Assembly: GCF_003334335.1 (NCBI RefSeq)
Contig: NZ_QOWQ01000004.1
DNA: 64,000 bases
From: Escherichia coli
Lineage (GTDB): Bacteria > Pseudomonadota > Gammaproteobacteria > Enterobacterales > Enterobacteriaceae
Direction: 5' to 3' (one strand)
Numbering within the stretch: the stretch's first letter is position 1; each line of letters opens with the position of its first letter. A program made the position numbers and the translations under genes. Under the pieces are notes generated by a model. That model searched no databases. It worked only from the letters and a program-made list of their open reading frames with translations, and was not told where the DNA came from. Shown piece after piece: positions 2,597-3,068 of this stretch.

Positions 2597-2745
2597 GAGT
2601 TAATTCCACTGTGAAAACGAATATTTATTTTGCGTTCCCGTTTGTTTTATTTTTGTTAACATTTAATATAATTATTATTAACCTCGTGGACGCGTTAATG
2701 GCTAACTCATAATGGGTATTCAATAAGCTGTATTCTGTGATTGGT

Positions 2746-2761
2746 ATCACATTTTTGTTTC
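2746..2761. promoter_or_regulatory. CRP-binding site (TGTGA-N6-TCACA) in cai/fix divergent control region
   Basis: Sequence tgtgattggtatcaca is a perfect match to both CRP consensus half-sites; the cai and fix operons are known to be cAMP-CRP dependent. Confidence 0.75.
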
Positions 2762-2847
2762 GGGTGAATAGAGGGCGTTTTTTCGTTAATTTTGATTAAT
2801 AATCAGTTTGTTATGCTCTATTGTGAGTAAAAAAATAACATCTGACT

Positions 2848-2977
2848 TTCAATATTGGTGATCCATAAAACAATATTGAAAATTTCTTTTTGCTACGCCG
2901 TGTTTTCAATATTGGTGAGGAACTTAACAATATTGAAAGTTGGATTTATCTGCGTGTGACATTTTCAATATTGGTGA
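2848..2977. promoter_or_regulatory. Three direct copies of TTCAATATTGGTGA (2848, 2905, 2964), the first two each followed after 9 bp by the palindromic half-site CAATATTGAAA; probable CaiF activator sites
   Basis: Repeats read directly from the sequence, spaced 57 and 59 bp; location between caiT and fixA matches the described CaiF-binding region (assignment to CaiF is from memory). Confidence 0.6.
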
Positions 2978-3068
2978 TTAAAGTTTTATTTCCAAATTAA
3001 AGGGCGTGATATCTGTAATTAACACCACCGATATGAACGACGTTTCCTTCATGATTTCTGGAGATGCA

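What the first reader, a model, noticed from the sequence alone, without database searches (positions are those of the whole stretch)
2597..3068. caiT-fixA divergent control region: perfect CRP site plus three evenly spaced 14-bp direct repeats
A perfect TGTGA-N6-TCACA site lies at 2746..2761. TTCAATATTGGTGA occurs three times (2848, 2905, 2964) at 57 to 59 bp spacing; the first two are each followed after 9 bp by the palindromic half-site CAATATTGAAA. This fits CRP plus CaiF activation of both operons, but the third copy lacks a partner half-site and lies closest to fixA, so its role is less clear.
Basis: partly seen in the sequence, partly recalled or inferred. Interest (0 to 1): 0.3.

Follow-up and report, generated by a model that had tools for sequence, protein, structure and literature searches.

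The report
cai-fix promoter region: CaiF/CRP sites
This is the well-studied switch region between the E. coli carnitine operons caiTABCDE and fixABCX, holding a CRP site and two published CaiF activator sites; the "extra" third repeat is a lone CaiF half-site inside the fixA core promoter, and it is the most widely conserved piece of the region.

Summary
TTCAATATTGGTGA occurs exactly three times (2848, 2905, 2964).

Copies 1 and 2 are the left arms of TTTCAATATTG-N13-CAATATTGAAA (2847-2881, 2904-2938). This is letter for letter the published CaiF operator sequence (F1/F2). The extra GTGA starts CRP-like sites that share each dyad. The region is therefore already known.

Copy 3 (2963-2977) has no partner arm. 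It fills the 17-bp spacer of the only sigma-70-like fix promoter, GTGACA-N17-TAAAGT, with an inferred start near 2991.

- In 46 of 47 Enterobacterales cai-fix regions the lone copy is present and nearly invariant.
- The number of full inverted-repeat sites varies from 0 to 3.
- In Hafnia, Edwardsiella, Leminorella, Limnobaculum, Serratia sp. and Budvicia the lone module is the only CaiF-type motif. The one Hafnia locus I checked encodes a CaiF orthologue.
- Two cai loci without a nearby CaiF gene (Shewanella, Campylobacter) lack the motif.

Best reading: copy 3 is a functional, ancestral, promoter-embedded CaiF half-site. It may act like CaiF's homologue GrlA, which binds the LEE1 promoter spacer. 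Binding of CaiF to copy 3 is inferred, not shown. Overall interest is low to moderate.

The parts
1082..2596 (-). caiT (L-carnitine/gamma-butyrobetaine antiporter), first gene of caiTABCDE
   Evidence: 504-aa ORF. The K-12 annotation of the homologous region names it caiT. It retrieves CaiT loci across Enterobacterales.
2709..2714 (-). Candidate cai -10 hexamer CATTAT; inferred cai transcription start near 2702
   Evidence: Read directly. It places the perfect CRP site at -41.5. Inferred, not measured here.
2736..2751 (.). Perfect CRP palindrome TGTGATTGGTATCACA (CRP site 1)
   Evidence: Single match in the window, 0.07 expected. In the divergent E. coli strain AGR6137 both half-sites are kept while the N6 is entirely replaced.
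2847..2881 (.). CaiF inverted-repeat operator TTTCAATATTG-N13-CAATATTGAAA (one of the published sites F1/F2); contains repeat copy 1
   Evidence: I8: 11-nt arms, 100% complementary, 13 nt apart. The sequence is identical to the operator quoted in PMC12083890.
2857..2872 (.). CRP-like site GGTGATCCATAAAACA (7 of 10), on the same dyad as the CaiF site; -126.5 from the inferred fix start
   Evidence: It agrees with my recollection of a published CRP site at -126.5; that paper could not be read.
2904..2938 (.). Second CaiF inverted-repeat operator (the other of F1/F2); contains repeat copy 2
   Evidence: PMC12083890.
2914..2929 (.). CRP-like site GGTGAGGAACTTAACA (8 of 10), on the same dyad as the CaiF site; -69.5 from the inferred fix start
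2956..2961 (+). fix promoter -35-like hexamer GTGACA
   Evidence: Part of the only + strand sigma-70-like match in the intergenic region. It is kept in the Escherichia/Citrobacter/Salmonella clade, and as GTGACA or GTAACA in Limnobaculum and Edwardsiella.
2963..2977 (+). Lone third copy TTTCAATATTGGTGA: a CaiF half-site without a partner, filling the -35/-10 spacer of the fix promoter (about -28 to -14)
   Evidence: Present in 46 of 47 Enterobacterales cai-fix regions. Column conservation is 0.94-0.99 against 0.45-0.53 in the flanks over 20 genera.
2979..2984 (+). fix promoter -10-like hexamer TAAAGT; inferred fix start near 2991
   Evidence: 2991 minus 2702 is 289 bp, the start-site separation I recall from Buchet et al. 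1998, which could not be read here.
2983..2992 (+). Conserved T-rich tract GTTTTATTTC directly after the lone copy (discriminator/start region, or an alternative -10 such as TTTTAT 2984-2989)
   Evidence: Offsets 20-29 have a majority fraction of 0.86 across 20 genera. Hafniaceae have TATTAT and Proteus TTTAAT at the same offset.
3005..3023 (+). Second conserved block CGTGATATCTGTAATTAAC at a fixed 42 bp from the lone copy in all families; function unknown
   Evidence: The leader shows no RNA structure signal (z = 0.58) and no Rfam match.
3069..3839 (+). fixA (electron-transfer flavoprotein), first gene of fixABCX
   Evidence: Translation begins [14 protein letters not shown]. RefSeq annotation under the match names fixA.

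Best explanation
The interval is the divergent caiTABCDE-fixABCX control region of E. coli. Three parts of it are already known.
- A perfect CRP site at 2736-2751 sits at -41.5 of the cai promoter.
- Two CaiF operators (11-bp arms, 13-bp gap) lie at 2847-2881 and 2904-2938. Each also holds a weak CRP-like site on the same dyad, which explains why the direct repeat runs 4 bp (GTGA) past the CaiF arm.
- They lie about 70 and 127 bp upstream of the fix start.

The third copy (2963-2977) is a lone CaiF half-site. It exactly fills the 17-bp spacer between GTGACA and TAAAGT of the fix core promoter.

I propose that it is a working, ancestral CaiF contact point. A CaiF protomer bound there, probably weakly and aided by RNA polymerase or by CaiF on the neighbouring operator 59 bp upstream, acts directly on the polymerase-promoter complex to switch on fixABCX. 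This is how its homologue GrlA acts from inside the spacer of the LEE1 promoter. The upstream inverted-repeat sites would be lineage-specific accessory copies (0 to 3 of them, at a 57-59 bp period) that raise occupancy and also serve the cai promoter.

Shown: the sequences, their positions, their conservation and their co-occurrence with a CaiF gene. Inferred: the transcription start positions, CaiF binding to copy 3, and the activation mechanism.
For: 1. Copies 1 and 2 are the published operator sequence.

2. Promoter geometry. The only + strand sigma-70-like site in the region is GTGACA-N17-TAAAGT at 2956-2984. The starts inferred from the two -10 hexamers are 289 bp apart. They place the CRP-like sites at -41.5 (cai) and at -69.5 and -126.5 (fix). 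These are the values I recalled before computing them.

3. Conservation. The lone copy lies 103-109 bp before the fixA ATG in most Enterobacteriaceae and in Proteus and most Providencia, the exceptions being C. sedlakii (-92), P. heimbachae (-139) and Entomohabitans (absent). It is present in 46 of 47 Enterobacterales regions. Majority fractions are 0.94 for the half-site and 0.99 for GTGA, against about 0.5 in the flanks over 20 genera.

4. The number of full sites varies from 0 to 3. In Hafnia, Edwardsiella, Leminorella, Limnobaculum, Serratia sp. and Budvicia the lone module is the only CaiF-type motif.

5. Hafnia paralvei encodes a full-length CaiF orthologue (50% identity, PF07180). The lone module is the only intergenic half-site in 21.5 kb around it.

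6. The Shewanella and Campylobacter cai loci have no PF07180 gene within 10 kb and no motif.

7. CaiF belongs to Pfam CaiF_GrlA. GrlA is reported to bind the 18-bp spacer between -35 and -10 of LEE1 and to act in a MerR-like way (PMC10877973; PMC4856446).

8. The spacing between the last full site and the lone copy is held at 59-61 bp across genera.
Against: - Papers citing Buchet et al. 1999 speak of only two CaiF sites. A footprint on copy 3 was either not seen or not reported. The primary papers could not be read.
- A lone half-site should bind a dimeric protein weakly.
- The E. coli spacer is an optimal 17 bp, not the over-long spacer that MerR- or GrlA-type mechanisms correct.
- Outside the Escherichia/Citrobacter/Salmonella clade the TAAAGT-position hexamer is poor (CAGGTT, TAGGTT). 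A better -10 lies 5-8 bp downstream (TATTAT, TTTAAT, TATTTT). That would put the half-site over the -35 position rather than in the spacer.
- The transcription starts are inferred from sequence plus memory, not measured here.
- The anchored alignment was built by picking the best motif match, which inflates conservation of those columns. However, the threshold allowed 2 mismatches and most genomes had 0.
- Conservation shows constraint but not which protein imposes it.
Confidence: 0.55

Rival explanations
1. Class II (-35 replacement) variant. The real -10 is the conserved T-rich hexamer just downstream (TTTTAT 2984-2989 or TATTTC 2987-2992) and transcription starts near 2996-3000. The lone half-site then overlaps the -35 position. 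A bound CaiF would substitute for -35 recognition and touch sigma region 4, as PhoB does at pho boxes or CRP at -41.5.
For: The T-rich block at offsets 20-29 is conserved at 0.86 in all families. It reads as a good -10 in Hafniaceae (TATTAT) and Proteus (TTTAAT), whereas TAAAGT is clade-specific. Most genera outside the E. coli clade have no -35-like hexamer upstream of the lone copy.
Against: In E. coli the hexamer lacks the key A at position 2 (TTTTAT) or the key T at position 6 (TATTTC). The promoter scan found only GTGACA-N17-TAAAGT. A start at 2991 reproduces the recalled 289-bp separation and the -69.5 and -126.5 CRP positions.
Confidence: 0.2
2. Brake or repressor site. CaiF bound in the core promoter competes with RNA polymerase and caps fix expression at high CaiF levels, while activation comes only from the two upstream operators.
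For: A site between -35 and -10 is the classical repressor position. The cited literature attributes activation to two sites only. GrlA can also repress, at flhDC (PMC9979310).
Against: In six genera the lone module is the only CaiF-type motif in the cai-fix region, and the one Hafnia locus checked encodes a CaiF orthologue. A pure repressor site would leave the activator with no operator there. The module is the most conserved element, more than the supposed activating sites.
Confidence: 0.1
3. Non-CaiF constraint. The 14-mer is kept because it is core-promoter DNA (spacer shape, or a site for CRP or another factor through GGTGA), or it is simply the left-over end of a tandem duplication. CaiF does not use it.
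For: The GTGA extension is even more conserved (0.99) than the CaiF arm, and it is not part of the inverted repeat. TGTGACATTTTCAATA at 2955-2970 is a weak CRP-like match. Proteus shows a true 59-bp tandem array.
Against: Spacer DNA is not normally invariant over four families. The 11-mer is identical, 11 of 11, to the arms quoted as the CaiF operator. The CRP-like matches at the lone copy are poor (7 of 10 with a bad right half). A neutral duplication relic would have decayed like its flanks, which are about 50% conserved. TRF finds no tandem array in E. coli. The motif is absent from the two cai loci checked that lack a nearby CaiF gene.
Confidence: 0.15

Closest known systems
CaiF operators F1 and F2 of the E. 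coli cai-fix intergenic region (Buchet et al. 1999, as quoted in PMC12083890 and PMC3680233)
   Same: Copies 1 and 2 are these sites: TTTCAATATTG-N13-CAATATTGAAA, same locus and same genes. Copy 3 carries the same 11-bp arm plus the same GTGA extension, in the same orientation.
   Different: Copy 3 has no inverted partner. It lies in the core promoter rather than upstream. In the papers I could read it is not listed as a CaiF site.
GrlA activation of the LEE1 (ler) P1 promoter in EHEC/EPEC
   Same: GrlA and CaiF share Pfam family PF07180 (PMC9979310). GrlA is reported to bind within the spacer between -35 and -10 (PMC10877973). The lone CaiF half-site fills the spacer of the fix promoter.
   Different: The LEE1 spacer is a suboptimal 18 bp; the fix spacer is 17 bp. 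The two spacers share only 6 of 17 positions by direct reading (LEE1 sequence from PMC3130263). CaiF needs an acyl-CoA effector, whereas GrlA is controlled by GrlR. CaiF binding at this position is not demonstrated.
MerR-family spacer-binding activators
   Same: An operator lying between -35 and -10, centred near -23.
   Different: CaiF is not a MerR-family protein. MerR operators are short dyads in 19-20 bp spacers; here there is a single half-site in a 17-bp spacer.
CRP class II (-41.5) and class I-type upstream sites
   Same: The perfect palindrome at 2736-2751 is at -41.5 of the inferred cai start. The weaker GGTGA-N6-TAACA and GGTGA-N6-AAACA sites are at -69.5 and -126.5 of the inferred fix start.
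   Different: The two weak sites share their dyad with CaiF operators, so CRP and CaiF must either co-occupy or compete. This was not tested here.
PhoB pho box and other -35-replacing activators
   Same: If the -10 is the conserved T-rich hexamer, the activator half-site ends about 10 bp upstream of it and takes the place of a -35 element.
   Different: Pho boxes are direct repeats bound by a tandem dimer. In E. coli a reasonable -35 (GTGACA) exists upstream of the half-site.

Membership tests
CaiF operator (F-site) | 11-bp arm TTTCAATATTG | tested here: met
   Exact at 2847, 2904 and 2963 on the + strand, and at 2871-2881 and 2928-2938 on the - strand.
CaiF operator (F-site) | Inverted partner arm CAATATTGAAA after a 13-bp gap | tested here: not met
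   Met for copies 1 and 2 (I8). Not met for copy 3: TATTTCCAAAT at N13 matches 4 of 11, and 6 of 11 at N12. So copy 3 is a half-site, not a full F-site.
CaiF operator (F-site) | Physical protection or binding by CaiF | not testable with these tools
   Reported for two sites by papers citing Buchet 1999. The primary papers are not held. Nothing was found on copy 3.
CaiF operator (F-site) | Co-occurrence with a caiF gene and a cai-fix locus across species | tested here: met
   The motif is present in 46 of 47 Enterobacterales cai-fix regions. A Hafnia locus has a CaiF orthologue. The Shewanella and Campylobacter loci have no PF07180 gene nearby and no motif. The sample for the CaiF-gene part is small.
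CRP binding site | TGTGA-N6-TCACA palindrome | tested here: met
   Perfect at 2736-2751. 8 of 10 at 2914-2929 and 7 of 10 at 2857-2872.
CRP binding site | Activating position relative to a transcription start (-41.5, or upstream on the same helical face) | tested here: inconclusive
   -41.5 (cai), and -69.5 and -126.5 (fix), using starts inferred from -10 hexamers. The starts were not measured here.
GrlA/MerR-like spacer-binding activation | Activator of the CaiF_GrlA family | tested here: met
   K-12 CaiF hits PF07180 (E = 2e-6). Homologues carry PF07180.
GrlA/MerR-like spacer-binding activation | Operator lies between the -35 and -10 hexamers | tested here: met
   The 14-mer at 2964-2977 lies within the spacer 2962-2978 of GTGACA-N17-TAAAGT. 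This depends on that promoter being the one used.
GrlA/MerR-like spacer-binding activation | Suboptimal (18-20 bp) spacer that the activator compensates | tested here: not met
   The spacer is 17 bp in E. coli. An 18-bp reading (TAGGTA/TAGGTT) is possible in Hafniaceae and Morganellaceae but is weak.
Tandem repeat array | Head-to-tail units alike over their whole length | tested here: not met
   TRF finds nothing in 2597-3068. Units 1 and 2 are 75% alike over 51 nt, about half of which is the motifs themselves. Proteus does have a 59-bp array: 2.4 copies, 72% matches.

The most novel reading that the evidence does not exclude
The lone third copy, not the two published inverted repeats, is the ancestral and universal CaiF operator. 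It is a half-site module (TTCAATATTGGTGA-N5/6-T-rich) built into the fix core promoter. Through it a CaiF protomer activates transcription from inside the -35/-10 region, which would make spacer or core-promoter binding a shared mechanism of the CaiF/GrlA family. The upstream F sites would be later, lineage-specific tandem additions (0 to 3 copies).
Probability: 0.4. Interest if true: 0.45.

Novelty: already known. Interest (0 to 1): 0.27.

Why it matters
The region as a whole adds nothing new. It is the textbook CRP plus CaiF control region of E. coli carnitine metabolism.

The part worth a specialist's attention is the third copy. It is more conserved than the two sites on which the current model rests. 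In several families it is the only CaiF-type motif.

If it is the primary activation site, three things follow.
- The published two-site model of fix and cai activation is incomplete.
- CaiF and the virulence regulator GrlA would share a core-promoter mode of action.
- Carnitine biosensors built on the fix promoter (PMC12083890) could be tuned rationally at this element.

Tried and rejected
- **Primary papers.** Buchet et al. 1998 and 1999 are not held. The transcription starts, the CRP positions and any mention of a third half-site rest on my memory plus sequence inference.
- **Literature searches.** Searches for fixAp/caiTp and for the motif strings gave nothing on copy 3.
- **RNA explanation.** The fix leader 2991-3085 folds no better than shuffles (z = 0.58), and there is no Rfam hit in 2500-3200. 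Rejected.
- **Tandem repeat in E. coli.** TRF finds none. Rejected as a description of the E. coli sequence, although a 59-bp array exists in Proteus.
- **Degenerate partner arm for copy 3.** Only 4-7 of 11 matches at N12 or N13 across genera. This is not distinguishable from AT-rich background, so it is left open.
- **CRP site at copy 3.** GGTGA-N6-TTTTA has a poor right half. Rejected.
- **Sigma-54, IHF and extended -10 readings of the 14-mer.** By eye, the spacing or the key bases do not fit. Rejected.
- **CaiF autoregulation.** There is no half-site with 0-1 mismatch upstream of K-12 caiF.
- **Similarity between the LEE1 spacer and the fix spacer.** Only 6 of 17 positions. Not used as evidence.
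- **Genome-wide scan for further 14-mer copies.** Only the 64-kb window, 9.5 kb of K-12 and three roughly 21-kb loci could be scanned. The one near-copy, at 62006, lies inside a 491-aa ORF and is taken as chance.

Full report

Yes, with one coordinate error.

- The interval lies between caiT (1082-2596, minus strand) and fixA (ATG at 3069), so the intergenic region is 2597-3068.
- It is 100% identical to E. coli strain L73 and is found in 5392 of 5426 complete E. coli genomes.
- It differs from K-12 MG1655 41932-42402 at three positions.
- TTCAATATTGGTGA occurs exactly at 2848, 2905 and 2964. With up to two mismatches there are 5 matches in the window against 0.34 expected, and no shuffle reached that number.
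- The 11-mer TTTCAATATTG occurs on the + strand at 2847, 2904 and 2963, and on the - strand at 2871-2881 and 2928-2938. Copies 1 and 2 therefore each have an inverted partner after 13 bp, and copy 3 has none.
- The only perfect TGTGA-N6-TCACA in the window is at 2736-2751.

**2. What the first two copies and the CRP site are**

[quoted passage not shown] Each is 5'-TTTCAATATTG-N13-CAATATTGAAA-3', and both papers describe co-activation by cAMP-CRP and CaiF (PMC12083890; PMC3680233). These sequences are exactly 2847-2881 and 2904-2938.

The direct repeat is longer than the CaiF arm because of the extra GTGA. In both operators it starts a CRP-like site centred on the same dyad:
- GGTGATCCATAAAACA at 2857-2872 (7 of 10);
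- GGTGAGGAACTTAACA at 2914-2929 (8 of 10).

**3. Promoter geometry**

This section is inferred. The primary papers (Buchet et al. 1998, 1999) are not held.

- The consensus scan finds one + strand sigma-70-like promoter in the region, GTGACA (2956-2961)-N17-TAAAGT (2979-2984). This predicts a start near 2991.
- On the cai side, CATTAT at 2714-2709 predicts a start at 2702 and puts the perfect CRP site at -41.5.
- The two inferred starts are 289 bp apart. The weak CRP-like sites fall at -69.5 and -126.5 from the fix start.
- Those are the numbers I recalled from the abstracts of the Buchet papers before computing them, so I take the geometry as probably right. It remains memory plus inference.
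- With this geometry the third copy (2963-2977) fills the 17-bp spacer of the fix promoter, at about -28 to -14.

**4. Related sequences**

One scan with CaiT gave 80 loci. In 47 Enterobacterales regions (46 of these loci plus the window) caiT and fixA are divergent neighbours, and I extracted the region between them.

*The lone copy is nearly universal.*
- It is present in 46 of 47 Enterobacterales regions.
- It lies 103-109 bp before the fixA ATG in most Enterobacteriaceae (Escherichia, most Citrobacter, Salmonella, Pseudocitrobacter, Phytobacter, Intestinirhabdus, Pluralibacter, Yokenella, Trabulsiella, Atlantibacter) and in Proteus and most Providencia. The exceptions are C. sedlakii (-92), P. 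heimbachae (-139) and Entomohabitans, where it is absent.
- It lies 260-350 bp before the ATG in Leminorella, Limnobaculum, Edwardsiella, Hafnia, a Serratia sp. and Budvicia.

*The number of full inverted-repeat sites varies.*

| Full sites | Genera |
|---|---|
| 3 | Proteus (exact 59-bp period; TRF calls a 59-bp array) |
| 2 | Escherichia/Citrobacter/Salmonella group |
| 1 | Yokenella, Pluralibacter, Trabulsiella, Atlantibacter and two unnamed Enterobacteriaceae |
| 0 | The six distant genera listed above |

*Conservation is concentrated on the lone copy.* In an alignment of 20 genera anchored on the lone copy, the majority-base fractions are:
- 0.94 for the 11-mer;
- 0.99 for GTGA;
- 0.86 for a T-rich tract at offsets 20-29;
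- 0.45-0.53 in the flanks.

The anchoring favours the motif columns. However, most genomes have 0 mismatches where 2 were allowed. The fixed distance to a second conserved block (window 3005-3023) also supports orthology.

*Within E. coli*, the most divergent region I looked at (strain AGR6137) differs almost only in 2725-2821. It keeps all five half-sites and both CRP half-sites.

**5. Link to CaiF**

- A Hafnia paralvei locus with only the lone module encodes a full-length CaiF orthologue (134 aa, 50% identity, PF07180). In 21.5 kb the lone module is the only intergenic half-site with at most one mismatch.
- The cai loci of Shewanella fidelis and Campylobacter gastrosuis have no PF07180 gene within 10 kb and no motif.
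- The motif therefore travels with CaiF, though the sample is small.

**6. Mechanism**

CaiF belongs to Pfam CaiF_GrlA. Its homologue GrlA is reported to activate LEE1 by binding the 18-bp spacer between -35 and -10, in a MerR-like manner (PMC10877973; PMC4856446; homology stated in PMC9979310).

A CaiF half-site filling the fix spacer fits the same mode of action. My best explanation (confidence 0.55 for the package) is this:
- Copy 3 is a functional, ancestral, promoter-embedded CaiF contact.
- It acts directly on the polymerase-promoter complex.
- The upstream inverted repeats are accessory, lineage-specific copies.

Points against this reading:
- The cited literature names only two CaiF sites.
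- A half-site should bind weakly.
- The E. coli spacer is already an optimal 17 bp.
- Outside the E. coli clade a better -10 lies 5-8 bp downstream. That would place the half-site over the -35 position, giving a class II, PhoB-like geometry. This is my main rival reading (0.2).
- A brake or repressor role (0.1) is hard to square with genera in which the lone module is the only operator.
- A non-CaiF constraint or a duplication relic (0.15) does not explain 11 of 11 identity to the operator arm, or invariance across four families while the flanks are saturated with changes.

**7. Other explanations examined**

- RNA-level explanations fail. The leader fold has z = 0.58 and there is no Rfam match.
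- The E. coli repeats are not a tandem array by TRF.

**8. Verdict**

The added value is that the unexplained third copy is the best-conserved element and sits in the fix core promoter. No paper in the searchable library contains the 14-mer, but I could not check the primary papers.

Novelty is "already known" for the region. Interest is 0.27. The most novel reading not excluded is that the lone module is the ancestral CaiF operator, with a GrlA-like core-promoter mechanism. I give that a probability of about 0.4 and an interest of about 0.45 if true.

Noticed in passing
window 3005-3023: A second conserved block, CGTGATATCTGTAATTAAC (Hafnia: CATGGTATTTCTATTG), lies a fixed 42 bp after the start of the lone copy in all families. 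This holds even where the distance to fixA differs by 160-240 bp. It would be +15 to +33 of the fix leader. Some genera carry a NarL-heptamer-like TACTYAT there. Function unknown.
   Followed up: partly
window 2725-2821 versus L084 (E. coli AGR6137) 229-325: Within E. coli, nearly all divergence of the intergenic region is packed into about 100 bp between the CRP site and the first CaiF operator. The CRP half-sites are kept while the N6 is completely replaced (TGTGA-TGTTAG-TCACA). It looks like a recombined or fast-evolving segment.
   Followed up: partly
L026 (Proteus penneri) 1992-2134; also L027, L029-L033, L042: Proteus has three full CaiF-type inverted repeats plus the lone copy at an exact 59-bp period. 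TRF calls a 59-bp tandem array (2.4 copies, 72% matches), which suggests operator number grew by tandem duplication.
   Followed up: partly
L047 (Budvicia aquatica) intergenic region, -339 and -312 from the fixA start: Two lone modules (TTTCAATATTGGTGA-N3-AGGTATT) sit in direct tandem 27 bp apart, with no inverted partner.
   Followed up: no
L021, L043, L045, L046, L048, L049, L051, cai side of the intergenic region: In place of E. coli's perfect CRP palindrome, the distant Enterobacterales share AATCCGTGATCTTAATCAAA. This is an FNR-like GTGAT-N4-ATCAA motif and hints at direct FNR control of cai there.
   Followed up: no
L021 (Leminorella), L043 and L050 (Limnobaculum), about -35 from the fixA start: A reverse-oriented exact half-site, CAATATTGAAA, lies next to the fixA ribosome-binding site, about 230 bp downstream of the lone module.
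   Followed up: no
L036 (Entomohabitans teleogrylli) intergenic region: This is the only Enterobacterales region without the lone half-site. It keeps one full inverted repeat, plus GGTGA...TTTTATTT and the downstream block, so the CaiF arm alone has been lost.
   Followed up: no
window 62006-62019 (- strand): TTCGATATTGGTGA, one mismatch from the repeat, lies inside a 491-aa ORF (61432-62907). It is most likely chance.
   Followed up: partly
window 2769-2791 and 2998-3020: A direct repeat, TAGAGGGCGTTTTTTCGTTAATT / TAAAGGGCGTGATATCTGTAATT (74% identity, 229 bp apart). The second copy overlaps the conserved downstream block. Unexplained, and possibly chance.
   Followed up: no
L085 (Shewanella fidelis), L086 (Campylobacter gastrosuis): These cai-fix-type gene clusters have no CaiF_GrlA gene within 10 kb and no CaiF motif. 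The Shewanella cluster is flanked by LysR-type regulators, and Shewanella intergenic regions carry their own repeated motifs (for example CCGGAAATAAGTTCC in L062). Regulation there appears to be different.
   Followed up: no
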